Positions 13,382 through 50,479 of a stretch of DNA of 64,000 nucleotides are shown here, piece after piece. The notes beneath the pieces are model-generated. The model had not been told where the DNA came from and did no database searches. It saw only the letters and a program-made list of their open reading frames with translations. The DNA lies in the NCBI GenBank assembly GCA_964651655.1, contig CAZYVS010000001.1, positions 5,132 through 69,131 of the forward strand, read 5' to 3'. Made by a program: the position numbers and the translations under genes. Numbering within the stretch: position 1 is the stretch's first letter; every line of letters starts with the position of its first letter. The stretch comes from an uncultured Candidatus Saccharibacteria bacterium. GTDB lineage: Bacteria; Patescibacteriota; Minisyncoccia; Phycocordibacterales; Zambryskibacteraceae.

Positions 13382-14338
13382 TTAGTTTCCTAACGTGATA
13401 AACGAATGTTCTGTAGTTGTAGCGCTGTTGTTTGCCTTATCGGAAACTTTCACCAAATAGTAATAAGTTGTGGAAGCCGTTAATTCAGAGAGATTGTAGG
13501 AATGGAAAGTCTTCCGGGTACCATTGTCCAATCTATTTGCCGAGGATACGTTCAGAGGTGTCGTCGTGCTGTACCAAAGTGTGGAAATGGCATTCTCATT
13601 AGTAAACCATGTTACGGAAGCCGTAGTGCTTGCTGTGCTGGTAGCCGAGAGGTCTCTTATAATTGGAGCCAACACATCAGGCGTAGTCGTCCCTAGCTTC
13701 CAGTCATCACCCTTCTTCTCTATACCTTTTGGTAATTTCTGACATTCGGGAACAATCGGTTTTACCCCATCATGTTTTCTTAGCCATCCTGGAGCAATTA
13801 AGTGTCCCGGAGGCACAGCGGCACATAGACGATGTTTCTTTTTGTCATTATCATTATCATTATCATCGTCCTCATCGTCATCTTCGAAAGCAATCTGATT
13901 ATCTTTTAAGAGTCTGTTCAATAACATTCGGGTCCTGGGACCAACCCAGCCCACTTGCTCAAGACCATTTTCCTTCTGAAGACGCTTGAGTGCCCTCTCT
14001 GTTGCCTTTCCAAAGTATCCTGTTATTAATCCTTCAGGATAAATATCCGGGTTCGCAGCAAGAAGCGCCTGTAAGGCTTCTACGGCCTCTCCCCGCGACC
14101 CAAGGCTTAAACTAATAAGAAAATCGTTAAACTGTGTAGTCACTTGAGTTTGTAGAGTCATTTGACTAGTTACTAGGGCGTCAATTTGTTTCTGTAGAGC
14201 TTGTATTTGCTGAAGGAGCACCGATATTGCATTAATCTGCGTCGTGCTGGTAGCAGACTGGGCCATACTAATAGAAGGTATGAACATGGCGCCCGCTGTA
14301 AGCAGACCGACTAAGGGGATAAGCGACTTTCGTTTCAT
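13382..14338 (-). CDS. secreted protein with peptidoglycan-binding domain and acidic low-complexity tract
   Basis: Signal peptide. PG_binding_1-like stretch 'GSRGEAVEALQALLAANPDIYPEGLITGYFGKATERALKRLQKENGL'. 'EDDDEDDDNDNDNDKKK' acidic run. Thr/Ser-rich C-terminus. Confidence 0.5.
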   Translation of the reverse strand: MKRKSLIPLVGLLTAGAMFIPSISMAQSATSTTQINAISVLLQQIQALQKQIDALVTSQMTLQTQVTTQFNDFLISLSLGSRGEAVEALQALLAANPDIYPEGLITGYFGKATERALKRLQKENGLEQVGWVGPRTRMLLNRLLKDNQIAFEDDDEDDDNDNDNDKKKHRLCAAVPPGHLIAPGWLRKHDGVKPIVPECQKLPKGIEKKGDDWKLGTTTPDVLAPIIRDLSATSTASTTASVTWFTNENAISTLWYSTTTPLNVSSANRLDNGTRKTFHSYNLSELTASTTYYYLVKVSDKANNSATTTEHSFITLGN

Positions 14339-14517: not shown

Positions 14518-15066
14518 CTACACCTCTAGATCCGCCTTAACACTGGCGCTGGCCGTCTTTTGCTCGGCCTTCTTTAGCCTGGCAATATGATTTTGGGTAG
14601 TGACTATAGCAGAACGCAGTTCTCCAAGATTTTTGTAATCAGGACCAAACAGAAATACTTTTACTTTGTTCTCGGAGATAACTTTTGCCATGCTATTATT
14701 TACTTGCGCAGTTGTCGAAGCCTGTTCTTGGGCTACCAACCTGATATCCGCGCCAATTCCACTATCTCTATCTGCGATAGCCAGAAGAGATTTAACTACC
14801 AAGGAAACTTTACTTTTCTGTTCATCTCCCTGGTGTCCCTCCGCTCGTGATGAAGAGGTGGCGTTCCCTTGAGTTGAGGTGGCAGGCTTGTTTTGAGACT
14901 GCGCGCTTCCTGTCGCACTGGCACTTACGGAAGTTTGTGACCCTCCTCCATATACATTGACCCCGGCACCAACATTGACTTCTACAGCTGAAGCTGTGGC
15001 TCCCCCAGCCAATAATACTGCCAAGGTGGCTACCGCTAAGCTAAACCTTTTGTGTTCTTTTTTCAT
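14518..15066 (-). CDS. hypothetical secreted protein
   Basis: Signal peptide, Ser/Thr/Gly-rich N-terminal half, then conserved C-terminal region. 182 aa. Confidence 0.4.
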   Translation of the reverse strand: MKKEHKRFSLAVATLAVLLAGGATASAVEVNVGAGVNVYGGGSQTSVSASATGSAQSQNKPATSTQGNATSSSRAEGHQGDEQKSKVSLVVKSLLAIADRDSGIGADIRLVAQEQASTTAQVNNSMAKVISENKVKVFLFGPDYKNLGELRSAIVTTQNHIARLKKAEQKTASASVKADLEV

Positions 15067-15180: not shown

Positions 15181-15897
15181 TCAAGGTTGAACCTTGATAA
15201 TCCGTTTTATAATTGTATGGATAAATTTTAATACCACGTTCTCCGTATCTATATAGTCATCATTTTGAACAGCAATAAACATTTTTTCTTCAGCGAGCAC
15301 TTTCACATTTGTACTTTCAACAGTGGCACCGGAAATAATACTTGGGCTAGATTCTGTCGCCACCGCCATAGGTCTTGATGTTTTAGGTTGAGGAATAGGC
15401 CGACCAAAAAGCTGAACAATATAAATGCTCTCTTGGCCATTATAGACACCGGGCGCAAGAGCTATGCCAATCTCGGTGAATTTATCGTTAAGAATATTGG
15501 CGCGATGTCCTTGAGAATTCATCCAGGCGCGCACCACATCTTCCGAATCTATAAAGTTAATTGCTAAATTTTCACCCGCATAGAGAAAATCATAACCGCC
15601 TTGGGAAAACCAGTACCAGGGAGATTTGCCTTCGGGACTAGTGTGAGCAAAGTAATTCTTCTGCGCCATATCATTGGCCTTTAATTGAGCGGCGGCGGTC
15701 AGAATGGGACTAAACTCCAGCGGATTCAAATTTTGAGAGAAACGATTTGAATTAGTCAGGTCGAATAAGACTCCGGTGATAACAGCTGAAAGTAAATTAG
15801 GACGATTTGCAATGAGAGATTTGGTGGAGAAGACCAATCCAAAAAGAACAACTGCTAGAAAAGCGATGCCTATGAGATTTCTAAGTCTCTTTCTCAT
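15181..15897 (-). CDS. CAP-domain (SCP/PR-1/YkwD-like) secreted protein
   Basis: N-terminal TM/signal. 'AHTSPEGKSPW...WMNSQGHRANILNDKFTEIGIA' matches CAP-domain His/Glu signature positions. Confidence 0.55.
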   Translation of the reverse strand: MRKRLRNLIGIAFLAVVLFGLVFSTKSLIANRPNLLSAVITGVLFDLTNSNRFSQNLNPLEFSPILTAAAQLKANDMAQKNYFAHTSPEGKSPWYWFSQGGYDFLYAGENLAINFIDSEDVVRAWMNSQGHRANILNDKFTEIGIALAPGVYNGQESIYIVQLFGRPIPQPKTSRPMAVATESSPSIISGATVESTNVKVLAEEKMFIAVQNDDYIDTENVVLKFIHTIIKRIIKVQP

Positions 15898-15921: not shown

Positions 15922-18708
15922 CTATCTTCCAAAGGGTCTCACGATCTGGGAAATACGTTTTTGTTTAAAAATATTTTTCAGCAGATCAATAAGTCCCTCT
16001 CTCGGCGGCGGGGGCGGATTGATTGGAGTATCGTCGATATTGTCAAGGTTAGTATGGATATCGTTATCGTCTAGTTTGGCTGGAGGAATTTTATTTCGCG
16101 CCGGAGTTTTGTCAATTGCGACAATGATAGCCGGGGCATTTGGATTCTTGGACCACGGAACCAGAGGCGGTATTTGGAGCGCGAGTGCCGGACATTCCAG
16201 CATATTTATCCAACGTAAAGTCGTCTGATACGCGATGCCGGTGGATGTATTCAGACCCCATGGAGCGAGAATTTCACGCGGATATTTCTCTTGAAAGGTC
16301 TTAAGCGCATTGTACGTAAGAGGACCATAGACGCCAGTTACCGGTAAACCGGCGCCCATTTCCCCGTTCAAGAACTCTTGTAATTTCATAACTTGTTCCA
16401 CGTCATTATCAGCGCCATGGCGGATAAATTTATCCATATAAAGACCGCAGCTTACCCCAAGAACTTCGCCCTTACTTTCCACCGTGACACGAGAAGAAGC
16501 GACACCCGAAGAAGCATCGGTGCTTAAGTCAGGGTCTTGAAGGTAATCTCCTCCCAAGGCCTCAACCCAAGCGGTATTCGTATAAACACCCGGAGTGGTG
16601 CTGGCATTAAAGATTGCCGTGTAGGTAATAGTAATCTCTTCATTCGGAAAAATTTCACCAAGTTCCCAATTATTTTTGGTTATAATCTTGCCGTTTTCAT
16701 CTTTAAGAACATCATAGAGAATTCCTTCAAAAGCGGAACCGCCTTTATTTTCAATCACAATCGTGTAGTCCACGGTGCTCGAAGCGGTAATATCTGTGCC
16801 GGTGGCGGAATTTGTTTTGGTTATATAAAGAGAGGGATAGGTGCTCGCTTTCGTAACGCTTTCGTAAGAAATTGATCTGCCGAATGACCGTAAGCGACGA
16901 GCCAAAAGAGAAACTGTATCGGAATTATCGGCCGGGTTACCGTCGGTTTCATTGGCTGAAACTTCAAACGCATGGTCAATCAGAGTATCTCCATATGGCA
17001 AACCGCCATTCACTTTTGCCCGATACGAAAATTCTTTTATCTCGCCGGGCAAAAGGTCTCCTACTTCCAGGGAGTATATTTCATTTTGGTCCCCGCCTTC
17101 AAAACTGATGTGTGGTGAGTCGAAACTTCCATTAAATCGTACATTATGAGCCGAGGCATCACCACGATTGGCGACTGTAGTATGGAAGATGGGTTCCGAG
17201 CCCGGGCCAAGAATCTCTGGTCCTTCCACTTGCGAAGCCACCCAGATGTCAGGTTGGCCGAATGAGACATTACCCGACCAATCTCCAAAGATGTTAATGA
17301 GCGCGATAATCCAGTTGGAACTTATAACATTGGTATTGGCAACATTCAAAACGTTTGCTCCGGCATAAGCATTACCGGTGTTGATAGAAGCCGTACCACC
17401 CGCGCTCGTTGCCTTGTTTTCTCCCGTGAGAGCGAATACTTTGACGTTATTTCCGATGTTAGCGGTATTATTAGTTTTCACGTCAATACCTCCCCCACCT
17501 CCGGCACCATCTTCGTTCGCCCCATCATTAGAAAAGAGTTCAATACCGGATGGCGTCTCGGTCCAACTTATTCCCTCCGGCGCATTGAAGACCGAACCGT
17601 TCCAGTTGCCGAAGATTCTAAAGACAACAAAGAATGTGGGAGCGTTGACAAGATTGGTGTTGATAATATTTGCGACGTTACTGCCAGCCACAGCATTGCC
17701 GGTTTCAATTAAACTTCCATCGCCTTCCGTTTCGTTATCTCCGGTGTTGGCCGAGGTTTCCACTTCATTTTCAACATTAGCTGAATTGGTATTGGAAATA
17801 TTTGCTCCGCCGACCGTAGAAAACGGGGTGAAGAAATTGGAGAAAAAGTCCGAGTTCGGGAAGATGAGGTCGCCGTTCCACCCGCCGAAGTTGTTGAAAG
17901 CGAAGAGTAGATAATTTGAGTTGATAATATTGGTATTGGCAACATTGACCACATTGGCGCCAGCGTAAGCGTTACCGGTGTTGATCGAAGCGCCATTACC
18001 ACCCAAAGCAAAGTTCTGCCCGGTTGAAGAACGCACGATAACCACGTTTGAAATTGTGGCATCATTTTCCGTCTCTACTTTAAGAGTGGAAGCAAGGCCG
18101 TCGCAAGTTGGAGTGCCGCAGGGATTGTCGGAATTTGGAGGTGCTTCAGAAGAAGTTATGGGCCGGAGATCAATATGTCCAAGTGACTGGAGAAAATTAT
18201 TAAGAAGATACAAGAAACCGTTTGATTCAACCAGATTAAGATTGACCACCGAGACCACATTGGCAGAAGCATAGGCGTCGCCTGTCGTAATTAGAGTCTC
18301 GTTCGTTGAGGAAGCGTTATTCTCTCCCGTCGCGGCAGTAGTGGTGGCCTCATTTTCTACCACGCCTTCGTTGTTAATTAAAACATTCTCGTTCTCCGCC
18401 GGCAGAGTCTCAACTTCAACTACATTTACGTTGACACTGCTCTCCGTGTCAGTTTCCGCCACAGCATCGCCAGTATCTATAATTACTTCTCCGTTTGAGA
18501 TAGCTTGCTCCTCTTCAAGTACTGGCTCTGGCACCGTCTCCTCTACTACTACCGGCGCCTCTTCAACACTTGGCGTCTCTTCTACAATATCCTCGGCCTG
18601 AACTTGTAAGGGATACACCGGCGCTAGAATTAACGACCAGATAACTACTCCGGCGGTTAAACGTTTAGCTGTCTCCCAAGTATTAGACTGTAAAGATTGA
18701 AAAAACAT
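15922..18708 (-). CDS. large secreted surface protein (928 aa) with repeated 'TGNAYAGANVxNVANTNxI' modules and C-terminal peptidoglycan-binding-like domain
   Basis: Signal peptide. At least four copies of an approximately 35-aa motif: 'TTGDAYASANVVSVVNLNLV', 'NTGNAYAGANVVNVANTNII', 'ETGNAVAGSNVANIINTNLV', 'NTGNAYAGANVLNVANTNVI'. C-terminal 'GVYGPLTYNALKTFQ' is a PG-binding-like stretch. Pro-rich tail. Confidence 0.6.
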   Translation of the reverse strand: MFFQSLQSNTWETAKRLTAGVVIWSLILAPVYPLQVQAEDIVEETPSVEEAPVVVEETVPEPVLEEEQAISNGEVIIDTGDAVAETDTESSVNVNVVEVETLPAENENVLINNEGVVENEATTTAATGENNASSTNETLITTGDAYASANVVSVVNLNLVESNGFLYLLNNFLQSLGHIDLRPITSSEAPPNSDNPCGTPTCDGLASTLKVETENDATISNVVIVRSSTGQNFALGGNGASINTGNAYAGANVVNVANTNIINSNYLLFAFNNFGGWNGDLIFPNSDFFSNFFTPFSTVGGANISNTNSANVENEVETSANTGDNETEGDGSLIETGNAVAGSNVANIINTNLVNAPTFFVVFRIFGNWNGSVFNAPEGISWTETPSGIELFSNDGANEDGAGGGGGIDVKTNNTANIGNNVKVFALTGENKATSAGGTASINTGNAYAGANVLNVANTNVISSNWIIALINIFGDWSGNVSFGQPDIWVASQVEGPEILGPGSEPIFHTTVANRGDASAHNVRFNGSFDSPHISFEGGDQNEIYSLEVGDLLPGEIKEFSYRAKVNGGLPYGDTLIDHAFEVSANETDGNPADNSDTVSLLARRLRSFGRSISYESVTKASTYPSLYITKTNSATGTDITASSTVDYTIVIENKGGSAFEGILYDVLKDENGKIITKNNWELGEIFPNEEITITYTAIFNASTTPGVYTNTAWVEALGGDYLQDPDLSTDASSGVASSRVTVESKGEVLGVSCGLYMDKFIRHGADNDVEQVMKLQEFLNGEMGAGLPVTGVYGPLTYNALKTFQEKYPREILAPWGLNTSTGIAYQTTLRWINMLECPALALQIPPLVPWSKNPNAPAIIVAIDKTPARNKIPPAKLDDNDIHTNLDNIDDTPINPPPPPREGLIDLLKNIFKQKRISQIVRPFGR

Positions 18709-19111
18709 ATTTGAAAATTTTATTTATAAACGCTAGTACAGGACTCACCACCGTGTGCAAAATCGAACTTTGCACACTACTGGTTTCTTCCCCGCTGACC
18801 TGCGCTTCGACGCTTGTCGAGGATTTAACGTTGGACAGATTTACTTCAACATTTTTTTCTATTACCGCATCCTCGCCGGCAGGCGCTGTTACAGTTTCAT
18901 CAATGTCGGTAACAACTTCCCCGTCAATTTCAGTGTAAATCTTTACATTGGCTTTACTCTCGCCTTGGATAATTTCTCCCCCCGAATTAACCAAATTACT
19001 ACCCGTAGAAGCTGATGATGAGACATTATTTATAATCTCCACGGCATAAAGCGGCCAGGCTATACCTAGCCCGAGAGCGACCGCAATAATTTTTGTAGAT
19101 AGACTTAACAT
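18683..19111 (-). CDS. hypothetical secreted protein
   Basis: Likely start 'MLSLSTKIIAVALGLGIAWPLYA' (signal/TM). Upstream extension in the ORF track overlaps a REP element and is unlikely to be coding. Confidence 0.4.
   Translation of the reverse strand: MLSLSTKIIAVALGLGIAWPLYAVEIINNVSSSASTGSNLVNSGGEIIQGESKANVKIYTEIDGEVVTDIDETVTAPAGEDAVIEKNVEVNLSNVKSSTSVEAQVSGEETSSVQSSILHTVVSPVLAFINKIFKYVFSIFTV
18753..18777. repeat. REP-like palindromic element (TGTGCAAAG...CTTTGCACA family), copy 1
   Basis: GTGTGCAAA-ATCGAAC-TTTGCACAC: 9-bp perfect arms. Intergenic. Confidence 0.6.
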
Positions 19112-19117
19112 CACTTG

Positions 19118-19140
19118 TGTGCAAAGCTCGGCTTTGCACA
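19118..19140. repeat. REP-like palindromic element, copy 2
   Basis: GTGTGCAAAGC-TCG-GCTTTGCACA, 10-bp arms. Directly upstream of ORF 18683..19111. Confidence 0.6.
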
Positions 19141-19267
19141 AACTTATTTCCCTCGAATTCCGCTCCATTTTGTTTCCCAAGGTTCGACCTTCAGAATTCC
19201 TAAGGTCGAACCTTTGATAATGGGGCGGCACCCGAAGGTCCCGTAGGACGGGACACTTCGAAAAAAA

Positions 19268-19858
19268 CTATCTTCGAACGCGAACGATGTTCGTGTTGAC
19301 AACATTTACAACTTCCGACCAAGCGCTTGCGTCACCTGTTTTAATTGACCCACCATTTCCGCCGTTGGCATCGCTGTCAGCGTCAGAGTGCCAGCCCTTG
19401 GCTTTGGCTTTGCTTTTAGCATCGCCCCCACTGGAAATGTTTCCTCCTGTCGATGCATTAGTTGTGACGGTGTTAGTCACATATGTGTCGTCATTATTCA
19501 CGTCAACATCAATGTCACCCTTGCACCCGCAAGGAGATTTAACCTTGACATCATTAGAGTTGACAACATTTGTCACATACGAATCTGCCCATGCATCACC
19601 AGTTGTGATTGAGCCGCCATTTCCACCGTTAGCGTCACTATCAGCGTCACCACCCCATTTGGCTTTGGCTTTGCTTTTAGCATCGCCCCCACTGGAAATG
19701 TTTCCTCCTGTCGATGCATTAGTTGTGACGGTGTTAGTCACATATGTGTCGTCATTATTCACGTCAACATCAATGTCACCGCTCTGGTGGGAGGCCAGTG
19801 CTGGTGAGGTAAAGCTCAAGAGAGCCACGATAGCAAAGATTGCTGTAATTTTCTTCAT
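19268..19858 (-). CDS. small secreted repeat protein (196 aa), paralog of the 15922..18708 module family, with internal tandem duplication
   Basis: Signal peptide. Two near-identical ~80-aa internal repeats: a 122-nt stretch at about 19394-19515 is repeated exactly at 19646-19767 (period 252 nt), beginning 'CTTGGCTTTGGCTTTGCTTTTAGCATCGCCCCCACTGGAAATG' in the first copy. C-terminal '...GGNGGSIKTGDASAWSEVVNVVNTNIVRVRR' is shared with neighbours. Confidence 0.55.
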   Translation of the reverse strand: MKKITAIFAIVALLSFTSPALASHQSGDIDVDVNNDDTYVTNTVTTNASTGGNISSGGDAKSKAKAKWGGDADSDANGGNGGSITTGDAWADSYVTNVVNSNDVKVKSPCGCKGDIDVDVNNDDTYVTNTVTTNASTGGNISSGGDAKSKAKAKGWHSDADSDANGGNGGSIKTGDASAWSEVVNVVNTNIVRVRR

Positions 19859-20051
19859 TTGTTTTCTTTACTTAATTAACTTGTAATTAATCAAAATTTT
19901 TCTTCGGTCCCTTAAGGGCTAACTGAAGAAAAATTTTGTTTTATCAACCTTGTCCCGCTAAAGGCGGGGCTTCTTGGATTCTTGGAACCCAAGAAGCAAG
20001 GGATGTTTCCCTCTCCCTCATTTCTTGGGTTCCAAGCAGATTTTTGAAGAA

Positions 20052-20882
20052 CTATCTTCGAACGCGAACGATATTGGTATTCACTGTGTTTGATACACCT
20101 GAATAGGCACTCGCGTTGCCGGTAACGACCGTGCCACCGTTGCCACCGTTAGCGGTACTGTTAGCATCACCACCATTTTTGGTTTTGGCCTTGCTCTTGG
20201 CATTGCCGCCTTGAGAGGCATTGTTGCCAGTTGAAGCCGAAGTGCTGACATTGTTGATGACAGTGGTGTTCTTGTTCTTGATGTCCACGTGAACATCACC
20301 GCCACAACATTTAGGCGGACAAGTCTTGACTTCAAATTTATATAAGAGTCCAGCTGGATTTGTACTTACGTTGTAAGTACCGACATTTTTTACTTCAATC
20401 CGTAGCGTATGATTCCCCGGTGTTACATTTGCCGTGAGATTATAAGGATCCTGTGTGGCGAGTGTGAAGTTCACGCTATTTATATCTCCCGCAACCGGCA
20501 CACCATCAATGAAGACCTCGTAGCTATTATCGGTGGCAATATCTAACTGCGCGGACAGTACCGTGCCAGAGACTGTAAAGTTCTGTTCGAACGCCACTAC
20601 TTCATTAGCCGCAGTCGCGCCGGATTTCCAAATCCAAGTCGCTCCCGGAATTGATGCCGTCCAAGCCGGGTGAACAGCCACCGCTGCTGGACTGCCTCCT
20701 ACAACAGTCGTGGTCAAGTCACTCACAGAAGTTTCAGTGACTGGGTTTGTGCATTCACAGGGAGGTGGAACAGGGTCGGCAAAAGCTGTTTTAATACCGA
20801 CTAGCAACATGGCGGACATGGCAATGATCGCCGCCATAATAATTATTTTGTGTAAATAATTATTTGTTTTATATGAATCCAT
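20052..20882 (-). CDS. small secreted repeat protein (276 aa), paralog of the same module family
   Basis: TM/signal. Cys-containing Ig-like middle region. C-terminal 'ASTGNNASQGGNAKSKAKTKNGGDANSTANGGNGGTVVTGNASAYSGVSNTVNTNIVRVRR' is nearly the same module and the same terminal RVRR as 19268..19858. Confidence 0.55.
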   Translation of the reverse strand: MDSYKTNNYLHKIIIMAAIIAMSAMLLVGIKTAFADPVPPPCECTNPVTETSVSDLTTTVVGGSPAAVAVHPAWTASIPGATWIWKSGATAANEVVAFEQNFTVSGTVLSAQLDIATDNSYEVFIDGVPVAGDINSVNFTLATQDPYNLTANVTPGNHTLRIEVKNVGTYNVSTNPAGLLYKFEVKTCPPKCCGGDVHVDIKNKNTTVINNVSTSASTGNNASQGGNAKSKAKTKNGGDANSTANGGNGGTVVTGNASAYSGVSNTVNTNIVRVRR

Positions 20883-22323: not shown

Positions 22324-22569
22324 TTAATACACGCTACCGGAGCGTCGCCGGGCCAACCTAGTCTGCGTAGACTTAAAGCGTTGCAGGATATCGCGGCGCC
22401 GGGTAAGCTTAACCTCTGAAATCTCAAGCCGTCTTGTTTCGAGCTTAAAATACCCGTTGTATCCGGAGTATCCTATGTTCGTATTCGGCACCGTTTGTCT
22501 GGCCTCATAAACTTTCCCATCTTTAACAAAAAAGATCTTGCATCCCAAGGGCCAATTCTGACGTTTCAT
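22324..22569 (-). CDS. hypothetical small protein, 'DGKVYE...RRRDILQRF' family, paralog A
   Basis: 81 aa. Strong SD 'GGAGGAAAAATG' and an upstream TATAAT. Shares motifs with ORF 22817..23059. Confidence 0.4.
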   Translation of the reverse strand: MKRQNWPLGCKIFFVKDGKVYEARQTVPNTNIGYSGYNGYFKLETRRLEISEVKLTRRRDILQRFKSTQTRLARRRSGSVY

Positions 22570-22816: not shown

Positions 22817-23059
22817 TCATCGTACCAACTTTCGTCGGTGCTTCCCAACCCCAAAGCGTTGCAGAATATCGCCACGTCTCGCTGGCTTAATCCGTTCTGT
22901 TTTGGGTTGTCTTTCAACTCGAACGGAGAAATCAGTGACACTCCAGTGATATAAAACGGAGAATTTGTGCTCATACACCCTCCCATCTGTTCCCTTACGA
23001 AACTCCTTACAGGGAGATGCCTCACTTTTTTCTTCTTCGTCATCCTTCTCCTCCTTCAC
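22817..23059 (-). CDS. hypothetical small protein, 'DGRVYE...RRGDILQRF' family, paralog B
   Basis: 80 aa. Shares 'DG[KR]VYE' and 'RRxDILQRF' with 22324..22569. The overlapping alternative frame 22768..23043 is not conserved at the paralogous locus. Confidence 0.35.
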   Translation of the reverse strand: MKEEKDDEEEKSEASPCKEFRKGTDGRVYEHKFSVLYHWSVTDFSVRVERQPKTERIKPARRGDILQRFGVGKHRRKLVR

Positions 23060-34180: not shown

Positions 34181-34205
34181 CTGTGCAAAGCTCGACTTTG
34201 CACAG
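34181..34205. repeat. REP-like palindromic element, copy 3
   Basis: CTGTGCAAAG-CTCGA-CTTTGCACAG, 10-bp perfect arms. Immediately 3' of the REP-associated transposase gene. Confidence 0.65.
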
Positions 34206-34868
34206 TTATGGCAATAGTTCTTTGGTAATTTCCTTAGCTGGACTACTGGAAACAAATTTTTTATACGACGAAATGCTTTTTTCTTTAGTATAACGATCCG
34301 TTATAATATCCGTTACTAATAATCCTTCAAACCTATTTTTATCAATACAATCTTGATAACTTGACCATGGATAGAGATGCTCTTTTCCCGTCCATCCTTT
34401 TATTTCGCATGGATGTTTATGAATGTATGCCGAGGTATGCATTAATTGTCTGTCTTCGCCAATATGGACACTTTTATACGGACCTTGAAATAAGTGCCCG
34501 CTTTTTTCATGTCTAGTATTAAAATACTTTGTATATGCAGTCAAAACCCTGTGCATATATTTAGAAATGCCATTATCAACTAATTCACGAATAATTATAT
34601 GAAAATGGTTTGGCGCTAAACAGAAAACTACTAGTTCCACAATCCTCTTTTTTAGGATATCATTCTTTAACTCATCCGTAATGTGCAAAGTCGATCTTTG
34701 CACATTTTGGCGTATTTCTCTGCTTATATTTTTTATAACCACTTCTCCTTGAAAAGCCATGAGGAGAAATAAAAATCTTAAGCGATCTTGATCTGTTTCA
34801 AAGATTGGTTGTTTTTGCATTCCCCTGTTAAAGACATGCAAATATTCTCCGGGCGCATGAAATCGCAT
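34206..34868 (-). mobile_element. IS200/IS605-family Y1 transposase, REP-associated tyrosine transposase (RAYT)-like
   Basis: 220 aa. 'YLHVFNRGMQKQPIF' N-terminus. HUH motif 'NHFHIIIRE'. Catalytic-Tyr region 'TAYTKYFNTRHEKSGHLFQGPYKSVHI'. Flanked on both sides by REP-like palindromes of one family and carries one copy in-frame. Confidence 0.7.
34680..34706. repeat. REP-like palindromic element, copy 4 (inside the RAYT ORF, in frame)
   Basis: AATGTGCAAAG-TCGAT-CTTTGCACATT, 11-bp perfect arms. It encodes 'NVQRSTLHI' within the transposase. Confidence 0.6.
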
Positions 34869-34894
34869 ACCTCTATTGTATACCTATATTTATT

Positions 34895-34917
34895 TGTGCA
34901 AAGTCGAGCTTTGCACA
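34895..34917. repeat. REP-like palindromic element, copy 5
   Basis: TGTGCAAAG-TCGAG-CTTTGCACA. Immediately upstream of the RAYT start. Confidence 0.65.
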
Positions 34918-44297: not shown

Positions 44298-47021
44298 ATG
44301 GGTTCTGCAACAGAAATTGCGTGGCACACAAAACCGGTCTCAAAAGTTTTAGAGATATTAAAATCGAGTGAACACGGACTCTCAAGCATTGAGGTAAAAC
44401 ATAGGCTTGAAGAGAATGGGCCAAATGTTTTGCCGGAGTCAAGGCCGGATAATGTTGCTCTTATCTTTCTGCGGCAATTTCAGAGTCCATTAATTTATAT
44501 TCTCCTGGCCGCAGCTTTGGCGGTATTTTTTATAGGAGAGAAAACCGATGGTATTGTTATTATCACAGTTCTCATTTTGAATGCCGTTGTCGGCTCTATT
44601 CAAGAAGGTCGGGCCAGAAATACTCTCCTGGCCTTAAAGCAATACGTGGAAACAAAGGCGGTAGTTTTGCGGGACGACAAAGAAATTATTATTGCCGATT
44701 CGCAGGTGGTGGTAGGAGACATTATCTTACTCCAAGGAGGCGAAAAAATAGCGGCCGATGCAAGAATCATATCCGCACAAAATCTCAAGATTGACGAATC
44801 TTCTCTTACCGGAGAATCAGGGGCGGTGCATAAAACGTCTGACACCTTGGATAATCCAAATCTGACTGCGCAAGAAGAACGCAACATGCTATTCAAAGGC
44901 ACTCACGTGGTCGCCGGCAATGGCAAGGCCATAGTGGTAAGAACCGGGGTGGAAACAATTATCGGTAAAATAGCCAAGGAAGTATCTTTAATTGAGAAAG
45001 AGATCCCGCTTAAAACCAACATTCGCAACCTCTCAAGAATAATTATTCTAATTACGGTGGGTGTCAGCGCTCTTTTATTTATCGTCGGTATTATCTCCGG
45101 CAAATCTATAATTGAGATGCTTGTCTTTGTTATTTCAATTTCGGTTTCCATCATTCCAGAGGGCCTGCCAGTTGCTATTACCGTCATATTGGCCACCGGA
45201 GTTTGGAGGATGAGTAAGAGAAACGCCCTAATTAAACGTCTGCAAGCGGTAGAAGCGCTCGGACAAGCAAAAGTCATCGCAGTCGATAAGACGGGAACCA
45301 TTACCAAAAATGAAATGGTGGTTCAAACCATTCATGTGGACGGTCAGATGTTTGAGATTGACGGAGTCGGATATGAACCGAAGGGTGATATAAGAATCAA
45401 CAAACAAATTATAAATCCGCCCAATCACCCGGAACTTCTACTTTGTGGTAAAATCGCCGCTCTCTCGGCCAGCGCCAGAGTCATGCTTCAAGAAAAAACT
45501 ACGGAATGGAAAATCTCCGGCGACCCAACGGAAGCGGCCATGGTGGTGCTCGCCAGAAAGTTGGGTTTCAATAGAGATGATCTGGAACACGAATCACCGC
45601 TCATGGCAGAGATACCTTTCGACTACAACACTAAATATCATGCGACTCTACATAAAGATAAGGAAACAAATTTCTTAGCAGTAGCCGGCGCGCCCGAAGT
45701 AATTTTAGAAAATTCAAATAAAATTTGGCAAGATAACAAAGAAATAGGCCTCTCTCCCGAACGCAAAGAAGAATTGATATCTATATTCTTCGACATTTCA
45801 AGAAGAGGGCTTAGAGTTCTGGCACTGGCTTCAAGTTCGCGCGGCTCTGACGATTTAAATCAGGAAGATGTAATGAATCTGACCTTTACCGGATTCTGCG
45901 GTCTCAAGGATGCCTTGCGTCTCGAAGTTAAGGAAGCCACCAAACGCGCCATAGCGGCCGGCATGAGAGTGGTGATGATCACCGGCGACCATCAAACCAC
46001 GGCAGAAGCCATAGCCAAGGAAGCGGGTATTTATAAAACCGGTGATACCAGCCTGACCGGTGTTGAGATAGATAAATTTTCGGACGGCGTGCTTAAAGAA
46101 TACTTGACCAAGACTTCGGTATTTGCCAGAGTCACACCGGAACACAAACTCCGCATTATCAATGCTTATAAAGCCAGAGGAGAAATTATTGCTATGACCG
46201 GCGACGGAGTAAATGACGCGCCATCTCTGGTGGCGGCAGATCTTGGAGTGGCAATGGGTAAGATTGGTACAGAAGTGGCTAAGGAAGCTTCTGATATTGT
46301 CCTCTTGGATGATAATTTCGGCAGTATCGTTTCGGCAATAGAGGAAGGCAGAAACATTTACAAAACAATCACAAAAGTAGTTCTTTATCTTCTGTCTACC
46401 AGTCTGGGTGAACTGCTGGTGATTACGGGAGCCATTTTTGTAGGTCTGCCCTTACCACTTTTACCGGCACAGATCATATGGTTAAACTTCGTCACGGACG
46501 GATTCTTCACTGTCGCTCTTGCCATGGAGCCGAAGGAGCACGGCTTGTTGAGCAAAACATTTAAGAAGCCGGGGAGATATCTGGTGGATACTTTGATGGG
46601 GCAGAGAATATTGCTTATGGCGTTACCAATGCTTGTGATAACTCTTGTGTTGTTTCAAAATTATTTTGAAACAGATTTGGCCAAGGCGTGGACAATCTCT
46701 CTCACTGTCCTCGCCGTCTTTCAATGGTTTAATGCTTGGAATTGCCGTTCCGAAAATAAGTCAATCTTTCAGGCAAATATTTTCGAAAACAGATTTATGG
46801 CGGGCGCTACCTTGGCGGCTTTATCGTTCCAGATACTCGCCGTCTATAATCCCTTGTTCCAAAGATTTTTGCATACCGTACCACTTGCTCTTTCCGATTG
46901 GTTGGTTATTATTGCCCTGGCAACTTCTATTATCTGGGTAGAAGAAGTTAGAAAATTTTTATGGCGCAACAAAAAATCCTCGTTATCGTTGGTCCCACCG
47001 CTTCAGGTAAGTCAAGCCTAG
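44298..47021 (+). CDS. cation-transporting P-type ATPase (type IIA/IIB-like)
   Basis: 'DKTGTITKN' phosphorylation motif. 'MITGDHQTTAEAIA' and 'MTGDGVNDAPSLVAADLGVAMG' hinge motifs. Ten TM helices. 907 aa. Confidence 0.85.
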   Translation: MGSATEIAWHTKPVSKVLEILKSSEHGLSSIEVKHRLEENGPNVLPESRPDNVALIFLRQFQSPLIYILLAAALAVFFIGEKTDGIVIITVLILNAVVGSIQEGRARNTLLALKQYVETKAVVLRDDKEIIIADSQVVVGDIILLQGGEKIAADARIISAQNLKIDESSLTGESGAVHKTSDTLDNPNLTAQEERNMLFKGTHVVAGNGKAIVVRTGVETIIGKIAKEVSLIEKEIPLKTNIRNLSRIIILITVGVSALLFIVGIISGKSIIEMLVFVISISVSIIPEGLPVAITVILATGVWRMSKRNALIKRLQAVEALGQAKVIAVDKTGTITKNEMVVQTIHVDGQMFEIDGVGYEPKGDIRINKQIINPPNHPELLLCGKIAALSASARVMLQEKTTEWKISGDPTEAAMVVLARKLGFNRDDLEHESPLMAEIPFDYNTKYHATLHKDKETNFLAVAGAPEVILENSNKIWQDNKEIGLSPERKEELISIFFDISRRGLRVLALASSSRGSDDLNQEDVMNLTFTGFCGLKDALRLEVKEATKRAIAAGMRVVMITGDHQTTAEAIAKEAGIYKTGDTSLTGVEIDKFSDGVLKEYLTKTSVFARVTPEHKLRIINAYKARGEIIAMTGDGVNDAPSLVAADLGVAMGKIGTEVAKEASDIVLLDDNFGSIVSAIEEGRNIYKTITKVVLYLLSTSLGELLVITGAIFVGLPLPLLPAQIIWLNFVTDGFFTVALAMEPKEHGLLSKTFKKPGRYLVDTLMGQRILLMALPMLVITLVLFQNYFETDLAKAWTISLTVLAVFQWFNAWNCRSENKSIFQANIFENRFMAGATLAALSFQILAVYNPLFQRFLHTVPLALSDWLVIIALATSIIWVEEVRKFLWRNKKSSLSLVPPLQVSQA

Positions 47022-47875
47022 CTGTTCGATTAGCAAAAAAATTCAACGGAGAGATAATTTCCGCCGACTCGCGACAAGTCTATAAAGGTCTCGATATTGG
47101 TACGGGTAAAATCACTAAACAAGAGATGCGGGGCGTGCCACATCACCTGCTCAACGTTGCCAATCCTAAAAAACAATTCTCGGTGTCAGAATACAAAACT
47201 CTGGCTGAAAATAACTTACGATATATCGTAAGTTGTGGAAAATTGCCTATAGTTGTTGGGGGAACGGGTTTTTACATAGATACCCTTACCGGAAGAATTA
47301 ACTTTCCTAACGTGCCGCCGGACAAGAAACTTCGAGAGAAACTTTCTCAAAAATCTATTGAGACACTTTTTGAAATGTTGATGAAAAAAGATCCGACTAG
47401 AGCCAAAACAATCGACAAATATAACAAGGTTCGTCTGATCCGCGCTCTAGAGATTATCAAGAAAATTGGCTCCATTCCCCCACTTGGAAGCTCAACCTCC
47501 AAGTCTCGGTACCGCTTCATATTTATCGGATTAAAGCCAGATGACCTCGACAAAAGAATTTACAAAAGATTACTTATAAGATTTAACGGTATAATTCGTG
47601 AAGGCAAAAAACTGCATAAACAAGGACTGTCATACAAACGTATGTATGAACTTGGGCTTGAATACCGATATATTGGTATGTATTTGCAAAATAAAATCTC
47701 TAAAAAAGAAACAATGGATAAACTTTATTTGGCAATCAAACACTACGCCAAGCGGCAAATGACCTGGTTTAAGCGAAATAAAGAAATTAGATGGTTTACC
47801 ATGAGCTCTGTCGAAGGGTTCAAACCGGAAACATACAAAGAGATAGAAAAATATACTGGACGTATGCTAGGATGA
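46961..47875 (+). CDS. miaA: tRNA dimethylallyltransferase
   Basis: '[45 protein letters not shown]' P-loop N-terminus, typical of MiaA. Contains an in-frame 'PLGSSTSK' element. Confidence 0.85.
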   Translation: [304 protein letters not shown]

Positions 47876-47882: not shown

Positions 47883-47955
47883 GGGCGATTAGTTAAGTGG
47901 TATAACTTCGGTCTCCACCCCGTCGCTCGCGAGCGACGGGGTCCAAAACCGATAT
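47883..47955 (+). pseudogene. partial tRNA-Trp copy (5' portion, nt 1 to about 45) with 28-nt insertion in the anticodon loop
   Basis: GGGCGATTAGTTAAGTGGTATAACTTCGGTCTCC is identical to the 5' half of the intact tRNA-Trp at 48209. A perfect 24-nt palindrome CCCCGTCGCTCGCGAGCGACGGGG (47908..47931) follows. Then comes ...AAAACCGATAT, abutting the ATG of GIY-YIG copy 3. Confidence 0.55.
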
Positions 47956-47957: not shown

Positions 47958-48218
47958 ATGTATTACGTATATATTCTAAAAAATCTCAAAACAAAGAATT
48001 TGTATATAGGATACACCCGAAATTTAAGACGTAGAATAAATGAGCATCAGAGCGGAAAGGTATACACAACAAAACGATTAGGACGTGATGTGGACCTCGT
48101 TTACTACGAAGCTTATAAAAATGAGGATGATGCAAGAGATAGGGAGAAAAGTTTTAAAAATTCTGGTTCCGTGTACAATGGACTAGTTAAACGAATAAAA
48201 CGCAGTAGGGGCGATTAG
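47958..48218 (+). CDS. GIY-YIG nuclease superfamily small protein (UPF0213/YhbQ-like), copy 3
   Basis: 86 aa. 'YYVYILKNLKTKNLYIGYTRNLRRRINEHQ' GIY-YIG core. The 3' end overlaps the first 10 nt of the intact tRNA-Trp. Confidence 0.75.
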   Translation: MYYVYILKNLKTKNLYIGYTRNLRRRINEHQSGKVYTTKRLGRDVDLVYYEAYKNEDDARDREKSFKNSGSVYNGLVKRIKRSRGD

Positions 48219-48282
48219 TTAAGTGGTATAACTTCGGTCTCCAAAACCGATATCGGGGGTTCGATTCCCTCATCGCCCGCCA
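48209..48282 (+). tRNA. tRNA-Trp (anticodon CCA)
   Basis: Acceptor GGGCGAT/ATCGCCC plus G-CCA. D-stem GTTA/TAAC. Anticodon stem TCGGT/ACCGA with loop CTCCAAA. T-stem GGGGG/CCCTC with loop TTCGATT. Confidence 0.8.
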
Positions 48283-48840: not shown

Positions 48841-50349
48841 TCATATGCAGCAACTTAATTGGGAAATGTCTTTGGTGAATGACAGCGCGACAATTTTTAT
48901 GGATTCCGACAGCGTCGGGAACATCGGCAAGGAATTTGTTACATCGTCAATCGTGTTTTTGTTCTTGACCAGTATCATGGCTTCGGCGATAAGCTCGCCA
49001 GCATTCGGCGCGAGAATATGCACGCCAAGAATTTGTTTCGTTTTCGGATGAATCGCCATTTTTATCATTCCCTCGGTACGGTGCATGATAATCGCTTTTG
49101 GCACATCCTCGAACGAAACCGTGCGGCAGGCACATACCCCCATTTGCTTCATCTGCTCGTCCTCGGTAAAACCGACACCGGCAAGCTGGGGGTCGGTAAA
49201 AATAGTGTAGGGCACGGTATTATAGTCAATCGATTTGAGCGTTTGCCCTGAGCGAGCGTCAGCGAGTCGAAGGGCGTTTTCCGCGGCCAGCGTTCCTTCT
49301 CGTCCGGCGGTCGGTTCAAGACGCAAGGGTCCGCTCGTAACATCGCCGACTGCAAAAATATGCGGTTGCGAAGTTTGGAAGTGCTGATTGACTACAACAG
49401 CTTTCTTTGCATCAATGTTAACCCCGGCTTTATCTAATCCAAGGCCGCCAGTATTCGGGGTTTTACCTGCGGCAAGAAGAATCTCGTCAGCAGATGTTTC
49501 TTCTGGTTTGCCGCCAACGGTGTAAGAAACGACTTTTTTATCTTTTTCCTTTCGGGCACTTTTTACTTCGACATTTGTTTTTATGATTATGCCCTCCTTC
49601 TGTAGTAATTCCTGAAGGCGGTCTGTGAATGCCTTTTCGGCGGGCGGAAATAATGAGGGCCCGCGCTGGAGAATCGTTACTTTTGTGCCGAAACGCGAGA
49701 ACATTTGCCCGAATTCAAGTCCCAGAGGGCCCGCACCAACCACGATCAATTCTTTCGGCTGATTTTGCAGACGCAATGCTTCAATATGAGTGATAAATCC
49801 AACTTCGCGAATACCCTCAATCGGCGGAACATTAGCAGTTGAACCAGCGGCGATAATAAATTTTTCCGCACTCAGTTTTTCCTTGCCCGCCGAAGCTTTA
49901 GCGAAGGAGGGTCCGTTGACTTCAATTTTGTTTTGAGAAACAAATTTTGCCTTTCCTTCGATAACGGTGACATTCTCAAGATACTTTAAAACTTTTTCAT
50001 ATTTTTCAACCCGCAACTTTTCAACCAGCGATAATTCATCTTGCACAACTTTCTGAAAATCAAAATTTTTCACTTCAAGCTCAACACCGGCAACACCGTG
50101 ATGTTTGGCATAATGCAAAATTTCGCCAGCGTAAAGAAGCGTCTTTGACGGCACACACCCGACATTGACGCAAGTGCCACCAAGCGGCAGTCCGGAGTTA
50201 ATGAGTGCCGTTTTTGCTTTAAGTTCGTTGGCGCGGATGGCGGCGGCAAATGCCCCCGCCCCGCCGCCGATAATTATAAGGTCAAATTTTTTCACCCCGT
50301 TAGAAATTTGGGCTCTCTCATCTTTAAATTTTGTCTCGTTTTTCGCCAT
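48841..50349 (-). CDS. merA: class I pyridine nucleotide-disulfide oxidoreductase, mercuric reductase (MerA core)-like
   Basis: FAD motif 'DLIIIGGGAGAFAAA'. Redox-active 'GGTCVNVGCVPSK' (the MerA-type CVNVGC rather than the LpdA CLNVGC). C-terminal vicinal 'SCCI' Cys pair is characteristic of MerA. No NmerA metal-binding domain. Confidence 0.55.
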   Translation of the reverse strand: MAKNETKFKDERAQISNGVKKFDLIIIGGGAGAFAAAIRANELKAKTALINSGLPLGGTCVNVGCVPSKTLLYAGEILHYAKHHGVAGVELEVKNFDFQKVVQDELSLVEKLRVEKYEKVLKYLENVTVIEGKAKFVSQNKIEVNGPSFAKASAGKEKLSAEKFIIAAGSTANVPPIEGIREVGFITHIEALRLQNQPKELIVVGAGPLGLEFGQMFSRFGTKVTILQRGPSLFPPAEKAFTDRLQELLQKEGIIIKTNVEVKSARKEKDKKVVSYTVGGKPEETSADEILLAAGKTPNTGGLGLDKAGVNIDAKKAVVVNQHFQTSQPHIFAVGDVTSGPLRLEPTAGREGTLAAENALRLADARSGQTLKSIDYNTVPYTIFTDPQLAGVGFTEDEQMKQMGVCACRTVSFEDVPKAIIMHRTEGMIKMAIHPKTKQILGVHILAPNAGELIAEAMILVKNKNTIDDVTNSLPMFPTLSESIKIVALSFTKDISQLSCCI

Positions 50350-50479
50350 AACTTTATTGTTAGATTATTTTTTTGAGCTTGTCTGTATCCATACTTGAAT
50401 TCATATTCAAATGATAGCAAAATAAGAATCAATCTGAAATAACCAGTGTTTACACTGAGCGAGCCTTAGCGAGTCGAAG

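What the first reader, a model, noticed from the sequence alone, without database searches (positions are those of the whole stretch)
15922..20882. Paralogous family of three adjacent secreted proteins sharing a novel 'STGxN...GGNGGxxxTGNAxAxxxVxNxVNTNxV' module, one with a perfect intragenic tandem duplication
A 928-aa surface protein carries at least four module copies plus a PG-binding-like tail. Two small secreted proteins of 196 and 276 aa end in the same module and in an identical C-terminal 'NIVRVRR'. The 196-aa gene contains a 122-nt segment repeated exactly at a 252-nt period. Such a repeat implies recent slipped duplication and likely copy-number (phase or size) variation. I could not place the module in any family I know. 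The cluster is flanked by REP elements, has own-terminator units, and looks like a variable cell-surface or adhesin locus.
Basis: seen in the sequence. Interest (0 to 1): 0.6.

Follow-up and report, generated by a model that had tools for sequence, protein, structure and literature searches.

The report
Conserved Patescibacteria surface-protein operon, unannotated module
A candidate-phyla-radiation bacterium (Zambryskibacteria) carries a widely conserved but undescribed gene cluster for a wall-anchored surface protein and small secreted proteins that share an uncatalogued beta-hairpin module; the exact 122-base repeat is a gene-conversion patch in an old two-repeat gene, not a fresh duplication.

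Summary
The three ORFs, the shared module, the identical C-terminus (VNTNIVRVRR) and an exact 122-nt repeat are real. The repeat spacing is 261 nt, not 252.

The module matches nothing in Pfam, NCBIfam or PDB sequences. It is nevertheless widespread: 3,251 cluster representatives match it, and relatives occur in 224 species genomes. The 80 best loci listed are all Patescibacteria.

The genes form a conserved operon: small two-repeat secreted protein, then a mid protein with a degenerate module, then the large protein. The large protein has a signal peptide, 4.5 modules, two Ig-like DUF11/CLIPPER-type domains and a PG-binding domain. In 64 of 70 loci found through the large protein, a small-family gene lies directly upstream.

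Coevolution analysis and AlphaFold2 agree that the module is a long kinked beta-hairpin with a variable tip loop.

The two-repeat layout of the 196-aa gene is ancestral (64 of 73 homologues). The 122-nt identity, next to flanks only 75% identical, is a gene-conversion tract. Similar tracts recur in other lineages.

Independent assemblies break exactly at the repeat edges, so the repeat is real.

Size variation is possible but unproven: single-repeat hybrids occur in relatives.

My best reading is a wall-anchored scaffold onto which the small module proteins dock. That step is inferred.

Interest is moderate.

The parts
20052..20882 (-). p276: a secreted protein with a signal peptide, a lectin-like beta-sandwich domain, a Cys-rich linker (CPPKCCGG), one module, and the C-terminus VNTNIVRVRR.
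   Evidence: ORF. A 261-aa form from M16 and the 276-aa form are both in public collections. Module HMM hits. The C-terminus is 61% identical to p196.
20319..20660 (-). N-terminal beta-sandwich domain of p276 (aa 75-188). It is weakly similar to the CE2_N domain and to the N-terminal region of rhamnosidases, which suggests carbohydrate binding.
   Evidence: Pfam CE2_N E 2.4e-4, below the cut-off. NCBIfam rhamnosidase aa 131-244, E 6.9e-7. PDB 3w5m, E 0.006. Relatives carry CE2_N-like, DUF642, PA14 or Ice_binding domains in front of the module.
20055..20288 (-). The single module of p276 (aa 199-276).
   Evidence: The third, 62%-identical copy of the 122-nt repeat family lies at 20179-20300.
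19268..19858 (-). p196: a secreted two-repeat module protein with a signal peptide (ALA|S), repeat 1, a CGC linker and repeat 2, ending in RVRR.
   Evidence: ORF. It has 72 homologues, nearly all about 200 aa long with two repeats. 64 of 73 have a central CxC linker.
19535..19780 (-). p196 repeat 1 (aa 27-108).
   Evidence: Alignment A1; HMM hits.
19271..19519 (-). p196 repeat 2 (aa 114-196).
   Evidence: Alignment A1; HMM hits.
19659..19780 (.). Exact 122-nt tract, copy in repeat 1. It encodes GDIDVDVNNDDTYVTNTVTTNASTGGNISSGGDAKSKAKAK.
   Evidence: The Logan contig L090 ends at 19751, exactly 30 nt into this copy.
19398..19519 (.). Exact 122-nt tract, copy in repeat 2. I read it as a gene-conversion tract.
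   Evidence: The NCBI contig L086 starts at 19519, and the Logan contig L089 ends at 19427, 30 nt into the copy.
18683..19111 (-). Mid gene (142 aa from the ATG at 19111; the mechanical ORF runs to 19231). It has a signal peptide, one degenerate module (VEIINNVSSSASTGSN...GEIIQGESKANVKIYTEI), a variable linker and a conserved tail, INKIFKYVFSIF. It overlaps the p928 start by 26 nt.
   Evidence: Alignment A4 of 12 orthologues. The same 26-nt overlap occurs in L001. A similar ORF abuts the large gene in 67 of 85 loci; about 50 of these are mid-type, and the rest are small-family genes that abut the large gene directly. The module HMM gives 12 bits.
19118..19140 (.). REP-like palindrome TGTGCAAAGCTCGGCTTTGCACA, just upstream of the start of the mid gene.
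18754..18776 (.). REP-like palindrome with one mismatch, inside the variable 3' part of the mid gene and about 45 nt upstream of the p928 ATG.
15922..18708 (-). p928: the large exported scaffold protein.
   Evidence: ORF. It is 100% identical to an NCBI entry named 'MAG: peptidoglycan-binding protein [Candidatus Zambryskibacteria bacterium]'. The AF2 model has mean pLDDT 80.
17269..18498 (-). Module array of p928: a half module (aa 71-101) and four full modules (aa 108-177, 209-280, 303-372, 409-480).
   Evidence: HMM hits of 18-89 bits each. pLDDT is mostly above 90. No Pfam family covers this region in any homologue.
16474..17253 (-). Two Ig-like beta-sandwich domains of the DUF11/CLIPPER/CARDB type (aa 486-606 and 625-745).
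16189..16407 (-). PG_binding_1-like helical domain (aa 768-840).
15181..15897 (-). CAP/YkwD-family secreted protein gene directly downstream. This position is conserved in Zambryskibacteria-like relatives.
   Evidence: Pfam CAP E 6.6e-20. Synteny in L001, L007, L010 and L086-L089.

Best explanation
This is a conserved cell-envelope operon of Paceibacteria-type Patescibacteria.

Shown:
- The large protein has an N-terminal signal sequence, an array of four and a half copies of an uncatalogued module of about 74 aa, two Ig-like DUF11/CLIPPER-type domains, and a PG_binding_1-type domain.
- The small proteins carry the same module with a longer tip loop: two copies in p196, one copy behind a lectin-like domain in p276, and one degenerate copy in the mid protein.
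- The small proteins lack the hydrophobic capping hairpin that follows every module in the large protein.
- The module is a long kinked beta-hairpin. Its tip loop is the variable Gly/Asn/Asp/Lys-rich insertion of the small proteins.
- The genes are syntenic across hundreds of species, and the small subunit diverges much faster than the scaffold.
- The 122-nt exact repeat is a recent gene-conversion tract between the two ancient repeats of p196.

Inferred:
- The large protein is held on the cell's own peptidoglycan by its C-terminal domain and presents the module array outwards, as in the fibrillar-adhesin layout.
- The small module proteins dock onto that array, or polymerise from it, through homotypic module contacts on the uncapped A-x-A face.
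- The result would be a heteromeric surface layer or fibril whose variable tips and lectin-like cargo meet the environment or a host cell.
For: Module homology.

No curated family or solved relative.

Abundance and taxonomy:
- 3,251 representatives match at E<=1e-3, and 918 at E<=1e-30. The best 150 listed carry mostly 5 module stretches each (range 4-9).
- 224 species genomes encode a relative. The 80 best loci kept are all Patescibacteria.

Synteny:
- The order small gene, mid gene, large gene holds in Zambryski-, Kaiser- and other Parcubacteria. In a Levybacteria locus the small gene lies directly upstream of the large gene, with no mid gene.
- 64 of 70 loci found through the large protein have a small-family gene directly upstream on the same strand.
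- A mid gene with a KYVFSIF-type tail abuts or overlaps the start of the large gene.

Structure:
- The AF2 module region has pLDDT above 90 and is all-beta.
- Mean-field DCA on 1,053 modules gives an antiparallel ladder with i+j about 62, pairing columns 6-27 with columns 34-54. It also shows the hairpin of columns 55-74 contacting A42/A44.
- The CLIPPER literature describes the order distal domain, stalk, anchor as typical of fibrillar adhesins (10.1101/2025.04.25.650565).

Cargo fusions: CE2_N-like, DUF642, PA14 and Ice_binding domains sit N-terminal to the module in relatives.

Fast-evolving small subunit.

Gene conversion:
- Mosaic of 100% and 75% identity in the window.
- Within-protein repeat identity is 0.61, against 0.50 between orthologous repeats.
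- Significantly long identical tracts occur in 5 of 12 genes tested.

The repeat is real: contigs from three other assemblies stop at its edges or exactly k-1 bases inside it.
Against: - No experiment and no complex prediction supports docking or polymerisation.
- The p196 model is poor (pLDDT 60), so its fold and any exposed face are inferred from the large-protein modules.
- The orientation is assumed. The PG-binding domain could bind a host wall instead of the cell's own wall.
- The window's own protein misses the Pfam thresholds for DUF11 (no hit) and PG_binding_1 (22 against 23 bits).
- I could not run a fold search on the isolated module region, so a distant structural relative cannot be excluded.
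- Six of 70 loci lack an upstream small gene.
Confidence: 0.5

Rival explanations
1. A recent slipped or unequal duplication created the repeat in p196, and the gene is a phase- or size-variable contingency locus whose repeat number changes frequently.
For: - The two 122-nt tracts are exact and lie in frame, 261 nt apart. That is long enough for homologous recombination to delete or add a unit.
- Single-repeat hybrids exist in relatives. L092 equals the L001 small gene with the 297 nt between two copies of a 30-nt exact tract removed.
- P0165 against P0140 shows the same pattern at protein level.
Against: - The two-repeat layout is ancestral: 64 of 73 family members have it, and positional orthology of the repeats holds.
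- The rest of the unit is only 75% identical and has a 3-nt indel. This excludes a recent whole-unit duplication.
- There are no short-unit repeats that could shift the reading frame.
- No variant of the window's own gene was found.
- The hybrids sit on short contigs and may be assembly jumps across the identical tract.
Confidence: 0.15
2. The exact repeat is an assembly artefact. Two similar but non-identical segments were homogenised, or a single copy was duplicated by the assembler.
For: - p196's exact sequence is absent from the 15-billion-protein collection, although its neighbours on the same 160-kb contig are present.
- All four other contigs that carry p928 stop 350-812 nt upstream of its start; two of them (L086, L089) stop at or inside the repeat.
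Against: - The stops fall exactly where a true repeat makes a de Bruijn graph branch. L086 starts at 19519, the edge of copy 1.
- The Logan contigs L089 and L090 (Logan assembles with k=31, from my own knowledge) end at 19427 and 19751. Each is 30 nt, or k-1, inside a copy, entered from a unique flank. They come from different runs.
- Two repeats are the family norm.
- Long identical inter-repeat tracts occur in other lineages from other assemblies.
Confidence: 0.05
3. The small module proteins act on their own, for example as soluble lectins, effectors or ice- or mineral-binding proteins. In this reading they share ancestry with the large protein's distal domain but do not assemble with it. 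The large protein would be a host adhesin whose PG-binding domain grips a host cell wall.
For: - Lectin-like and Ice_binding domains are fused to the module in relatives.
- The small proteins evolve rapidly.
- A study of three archaea-associated Paceibacteria found highly expressed secreted proteins with PG-binding domains and proposed a role in host attachment (PMC10936435). Homology of those proteins to p928 was not verified.
Against: - Tight, same-strand synteny holds in 64 of 70 loci, and the mid gene overlaps the large gene, which suggests translational coupling. Both point to a shared assembly.
- The capping hairpin is systematically lost only in the small proteins.
- The poor stand-alone model of p196 is what one expects of a subunit that needs a partner.
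Confidence: 0.25

Closest known systems
Fibrillar adhesins with DUF11/CLIPPER stalks (Pfam PF01345 and PF24346; 10.1101/2025.04.25.650565)
   Different: There are only two stalk domains. The window protein itself gives no PF01345 hit. The distal region is an uncatalogued hairpin-module array. The same module is also encoded as separate small secreted proteins in the operon. The isopeptide residues were not examined.
Streptomyces chaplins: long, wall-anchored ChpA-C and short, secreted ChpD-H (from my own knowledge)
   Same: The logic is the same. One beta-rich domain occurs in multiple copies in wall-anchored long proteins and in one or two copies in small secreted proteins encoded nearby, and together they build a surface layer.
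   Different: There is no sequence relationship: Pfam Chaplin gives no hit. The anchor is a PG_binding_1 domain rather than a sortase signal. The module is polar and Asn/Gly/Thr-rich rather than hydrophobic. Assembly is not shown here.
Curli CsgA/CsgB (Curlin_rpt, PF07012; from my own knowledge)
   Same: Both have imperfect strand-turn-strand repeats rich in Asn/Gln and Gly (here G-x-N-x-A). Both pair a surface-bound protein with a secreted subunit that carries the same repeat. The basic end of the last repeat is reminiscent of CsgB R5.
   Different: There is no HMM match. No CsgEFG-type secretion genes are present. Patescibacteria are generally described as having a Gram-positive-like envelope without an outer membrane (from my own knowledge). 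The hairpins are much longer, about 22 residues per arm. Amyloid formation was not tested.
Concerted evolution of intragenic repeats in bacterial surface proteins, such as the repeats of the alpha C / Rib family and M proteins (from my own knowledge)
   Same: Repeats within one gene are more alike than orthologous repeats between lineages, and they contain long identical DNA tracts. Recombination between them can change the repeat number.
   Different: There are only two repeats, the homogenisation is partial, and no copy-number change has been shown for this gene.

Membership tests
Pfam PF01345 DUF11 / CLIPPER (and PF24346 DUF7507 / CLIPPER_2) | Profile HMM match above the gathering score. 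| tested here: not met
   The window's p928 gives no hit at E<=1. The 76%-identical P0004 scores 58.7 bits against a cut-off of 24.6 at aa 483-595, and DUF7507 scores 25.1 bits against 27. The family assignment therefore rests on homologues and on fold.
Pfam PF01345 DUF11 / CLIPPER | CnaA-like Ig beta-sandwich fold. | tested here: met
Pfam PF01345 DUF11 / CLIPPER | Intramolecular Lys-Asn isopeptide bond with a catalytic acidic residue. | not tested
   I had no access to the model coordinates. The survey paper notes that some DUF11 domains lack the bond.
Pfam PF01471 PG_binding_1 | Profile HMM match above the gathering score. | tested here: inconclusive
   22.0 bits against a cut-off of 23, E 1.9e-4, at aa 771-809. 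Several homologues are listed with PF01471. P0120 scores 25.2 bits.
Pfam PF01471 PG_binding_1 | Helical PG-binding fold. | tested here: met
Pfam PF01471 PG_binding_1 | Binding to peptidoglycan. | not testable with these tools
   This needs a sacculus pull-down.
Known functional-amyloid or matrix repeat families (Curlin_rpt PF07012, Chaplin PF03777, TasA/camelysin PF12389) | Profile HMM match of the module or of the small proteins. | tested here: not met
   None of these families is listed at E<=1 for the six proteins or for any of the 54 isolated modules.
Any solved structure, by sequence | Profile match to a PDB chain. | tested here: not met
   Profile A1 gives only two chance-level hits on Gly-rich linkers. 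Profile A3 gives none at E<=10.
Any solved structure, by fold, for the module region | Structural neighbour of the module array. | tested here: inconclusive
Contingency (phase-variable) locus by slipped-strand mispairing | A contiguous tract of short repeat units whose number alters the reading frame or the promoter spacing. | tested here: not met
   Tandem Repeats Finder reports only trivial arrays of score 31-44. The repeat unit is 261/264 nt and in frame, and the exact copies are 139 nt apart.
REP / RAYT system (side observation) | A repeated extragenic palindrome together with a Y1 (IS200-like) transposase gene flanked by copies of it. | tested here: met
   The palindrome occurs 5 times against 0.02 expected. 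The ORF 34206..34868 hits Y1_Tnp at E 9.4e-10 and has copies at 34182, 34682 and 34895. I did not examine RAYT-specific motifs.

The most novel reading that the evidence does not exclude
The hairpin module is the building block of a so far unrecognised self-assembling surface polymer, a fibril or an S-layer-like coat, of Paceibacteria. A peptidoglycan-anchored scaffold with 4.5 capped modules would nucleate or hold uncapped one- and two-module subunits. The fast-evolving tip loops and lectin-like cargo of those subunits would mediate contact with host cells or with phages. Gene conversion and recombination between the two repeats would reshape the exposed loops and occasionally the subunit length.
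Probability: 0.25. Interest if true: 0.7.

Novelty: new variant of a known kind. Interest (0 to 1): 0.45.

Why it matters
Patescibacteria make up a large share of bacterial diversity and mostly live attached to other cells, yet their envelope proteins are almost entirely uncharacterised. This operon is conserved in hundreds of species and carries a domain that no curated library describes. It also has an unusual scaffold-plus-subunit gene layout.

It is therefore a concrete, testable candidate for a major surface structure, and possibly a host-contact structure, of this group. The module deserves a family definition.

The finding is also a caution for annotation. The repeat breaks short-read assemblies at this gene. 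The gene's product is missing from a 15-billion-protein collection. And the exact repeat, which looks like a fresh duplication, is in fact a gene-conversion tract.

Tried and rejected
- Pfam and NCBIfam scans of all six cluster proteins, and a Pfam scan of 54 isolated modules, gave no family for the module.
- Searches of PDB sequences with profiles A1 and A3 found nothing.
- AF2 of p196 with 48 homologues gave only pLDDT 60. Foldseek of that model against the PDB gave no hit.
- The search for homologous proteins with the module profile returned a single hit, so that search was wasted.
- Three literature searches found no description of this family. One paper on Paceibacteria reports highly expressed secreted PG-binding-domain proteins, but I could not verify homology.
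- I considered p182a (14518..15066) as a further module carrier and rejected it (E about 1).
- I considered the hairpins after p276 and p196 as REP copies and rejected that. They are unique in the window.
- I considered the antisense ORFs, for example 19287..19886 (+), and rejected them. All 72 homologues support the minus-strand frame.

Full report
**What is in the sequence.**
All genes of the region lie on the minus strand. In order of transcription they are:
- p276 (20052..20882);
- p196 (19268..19858);
- a mid gene (ORF 18683..19231, probable start ATG at 19111);
- p928 (15922..18708);
- a CAP/YkwD gene (15181..15897);
- two further envelope-type genes.

p928 is 100% identical to an NCBI entry called 'MAG: peptidoglycan-binding protein [Candidatus Zambryskibacteria bacterium]'. 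The window is therefore from a Patescibacteria (CPR) genome.

**The shared module is real.**
- I built a 74-column profile (A3) from 54 module copies taken from p928 and its homologues; it contains no small-protein sequence.
- The profile hits p928 five times: a half copy at aa 71-101 and full copies at aa 108-177, 209-280, 303-372 and 409-480.
- It also hits both repeats of p196 and the C-terminus of p276. In a six-frame ORF set of the whole window it hits no other ORF.
- Profile-profile comparison of the small-protein family with the module gives 98.5% probability, E 2.6e-15.
- p196 and p276 are 61% identical over 94 aa. Both end in VNTNIVRVRR.
- The mid protein carries one degenerate copy (12 bits), which is conserved among its orthologues.

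**The repeat.**
- The 122-nt segments 19398-19519 and 19659-19780 are identical.
- The spacing is 261 nt, not 252.
- They are the first halves of two 87/88-codon protein repeats. The second halves align at a 264-nt offset and are only 75% identical.

**The duplication is old; the identity is new.**
- p196 has 72 homologues, nearly all about 200 aa long.
- 64 of 73 family members have two repeats joined by a CxC linker.
- Repeat 1 resembles the repeat 1 of other proteins (0.50) more than their repeat 2 (0.45). The duplication therefore predates the divergence of the family.
- The two repeats inside one protein are still more alike (0.61). That is concerted evolution.
- At the DNA level, significantly long identical inter-repeat tracts (30-125 nt, P<=0.0025 by column shuffling) occur in 5 of 12 genes from different lineages.
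- The window's 122-nt tract next to 75%-identical sequence is thus a gene-conversion patch, not a slipped duplication.

**The repeat is not an assembly artefact.**
- Contigs that carry p928 or p276 in other assemblies stop at the repeat.
- The NCBI contig L086 starts at 19519, the edge of copy 1.
- Logan contigs from two other runs end at 19427 and 19751. Each is exactly 30 nt inside a copy, entered from its unique flank.
- That is what k=31 unitigs do at a true repeat. (That Logan assembles with k=31 is from my own knowledge.)
- The repeat does break short-read assemblies.
- p196's exact sequence is absent from the protein collection, although its neighbours are present.

**Size variation.**
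- No variant of the window gene was found.
- In relatives there are single-repeat hybrids. L092 is the L001 small gene with the 297 nt between two copies of a 30-nt exact tract removed. P0165 against P0140 shows the same pattern.
- These are either real recombinant alleles or assembly jumps. Reads are needed to decide.

**The family and the operon.**
- The module profile finds 3,251 representatives at E<=1e-3 in 1.84 billion clusters. Of these, 918 score E<=1e-30. The best 150 listed are 524-1183 aa long and mostly have five module stretches.
- A scan of one genome per species found 224 relatives of p928. The 80 best loci kept are all Patescibacteria: Zambryski-, Kaiser-, Taylor-, Nomura-, Yonath-, Adler- and Giovannonibacteria and Paceibacterota.
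- In 64 of 70 of these loci with enough upstream sequence, a small-family gene lies directly upstream on the same strand.
- An ORF abuts or overlaps the start of the large gene in 67 of 85 loci. About 50 of these are mid genes of 110-260 aa, many with a KYVFSIF-type tail; in the others a small-family gene abuts directly.
- The 26-nt overlap between the mid gene and the large gene is the same in the window and in L001.
- The same order is seen in Kaiserbacteria. In a Levybacteria locus the small gene directly precedes the large gene.

**Domain assignment of p928.**
- AF2 with 116 homologues gives mean pLDDT 80, and above 90 in the modules.
- Pfam families in homologues all map C-terminal of about aa 483: DUF11 twice, DUF7507, CARDB and PG_binding_1.
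- The order signal peptide, distal region, Ig-like stalk, anchor is the fibrillar-adhesin layout described for DUF11/CLIPPER proteins (10.1101/2025.04.25.650565).
- The signal peptides (p928 ...VQA|ED, p196 ...ALA|SH, p276 ...AFA|DP) are read from the sequence, not predicted by a tool.

**Shape of the module.**
- Mean-field DCA on 1,053 module copies (Meff 934) gives a clear antiparallel ladder with i+j about 62. Examples are 12-51, 16-47, 14-49, 18-43, 27-36 and 23-39.
- Columns 6-27 pair with columns 34-54. This is a hairpin of about 22 residues per arm, kinked where the two TG motifs meet, with its tip at columns 28-33.
- That tip is where the small proteins carry their long, variable Gly/Asn/Asp/Lys-rich insertion.
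- Columns 55-74 (SNxxxxxxNxFGxWxG) form a second, hydrophobic hairpin that contacts the A42/A44 face.
- The small proteins lack this part and end right after the first hairpin with a basic tail.
- The AF2 secondary structure agrees with this topology.

**Further clues to function.**
- p276-like proteins in relatives place CE2_N-like, DUF642, PA14 or Ice_binding domains in front of the module. p276's own N-domain weakly resembles the N-terminal region of a rhamnosidase. The module thus behaves like a handle attached to sugar-binding-type cargo.
- The small subunit diverges far faster than the scaffold. In the closest relatives, L008 and L007, the large protein is 77% and 75% identical but the small one is only 44% and 40% identical.

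**Interpretation.**
- Shown: homology of the module, a conserved operon, the domain layout, the hairpin topology, an ancient duplication with recurrent conversion, and a real repeat.
- Inferred: the large protein sits on the cell's own wall with the module array outwards. The uncapped small module proteins dock on it or polymerise from it. This would give a heteromeric surface layer or fibril with variable tips.
- This logic resembles long and short chaplins, or CsgB and CsgA, but there is no sequence relationship to either.
- I put about 0.5 on the whole statement. I put much more on the descriptive part and about 0.35 on the docking step.

**Rivals.**
- A recently duplicated, phase-variable gene: 0.15.
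- An assembly artefact: 0.05.
- Independent action of the small proteins, or anchoring to a host wall: 0.25.

**Novelty and score.**
- The proteins are in public databases as hypothetical proteins, with some spurious names such as 'SKN1 domain-containing protein' and 'molybdenum cofactor biosynthesis enzyme'.
- I found no curated family and no paper that describes the module or the operon.
- The large protein fits a known kind, the wall-anchored fibrillar-adhesin-like protein.
- The module and the scaffold-plus-subunit arrangement are a new variant of that kind.
- Interest is 0.45.

Noticed in passing
window 34182-34917 (palindromes at 34182, 34682, 34895; ORF 34206..34868 minus strand); also 18754-18776 and 19118-19140: A 23-nt palindrome, TGTGCAAAG-N5-CTTTGCACA, occurs 5 times in the window against 0.02 expected. 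Three copies flank or lie inside an ORF that hits Pfam Y1_Tnp (IS200-like, E 9.4e-10). This looks like a REP / RAYT pair in a CPR genome. If the true start lies after the internal copy, the gene is about 155 aa long and is flanked by the palindrome on both sides.
   Followed up: partly
window 18754-18776: One REP-like palindrome lies in frame inside the variable linker of the mid gene (codons SVQSSILHTV), about 45 nt upstream of the p928 start codon. It could be an in-frame REP insertion or a regulatory hairpin for p928.
   Followed up: partly
window 47883-47917 and 48209-48243: An exact 35-nt copy of the 5' part of tRNA-Trp lies 326 nt upstream of the tRNA gene, directly after a miaA-like IPP-transferase gene (46961..47875). 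It may be a remnant of a rearrangement or an integration.
   Followed up: no
window 19268..19858 (minus) and 19287..19886 (plus): The exact p196 protein is missing from a collection of about 15 billion proteins, although all its neighbours on the same 160,554-nt contig are present. A longer antisense ORF (199 aa) covers the gene, but it is not in the collection either. The gene seems to have been missed or assembled differently elsewhere.
   Followed up: partly
L092 (893 nt) versus L001 7999-9170: A short contig from another sample carries a single-repeat hybrid of the two-repeat small gene. The 297 nt between two copies of a 30-nt exact tract are missing. P0165 against P0140 shows the same pattern. 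It is either a recombinant allele or an assembly jump.
   Followed up: partly
window 18683..18730 (C-terminus of the mid protein) and orthologues in L001, L007, L009, L010, L012, L022, L027, L028, L053, L057, L068: The mid proteins share a strongly conserved aromatic/hydrophobic C-terminal tail, (F)xxKIFKYVFSIF(K)F, of unknown role. The low-confidence C-terminal tail of p928 contains a similar LLKNIFKQ stretch.
   Followed up: partly
window 13382..14338 and 14518..15066 (minus strand): Downstream of the CAP gene lie a 182-aa secreted hypothetical protein and a 318-aa protein with PG_binding_1 (E 2.5e-11) and a Pur_ac_phosph_N-like domain. The whole stretch 13.4-20.9 kb therefore encodes envelope proteins. 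A strong terminator-like hairpin sits at 14444-14429.
   Followed up: partly
L001 4934-6304; L006 556-6795: In some related loci, genes for TasA/camelysin-like (Peptidase_M73), signal-peptidase-like (Peptidase_S24), sortase and subtilisin-like (Peptidase_S8) proteins lie a few kb upstream of the small gene. None of them is present next to the cluster in this window.
   Followed up: no
window 49238-49276 and 50445-50483; 22375-22412 and 22853-22890: Two further short direct repeats (39 nt at 85% identity and 38 nt at 76% identity) of unknown meaning. The second pair lies in a region of small ORFs with no family match.
   Followed up: no
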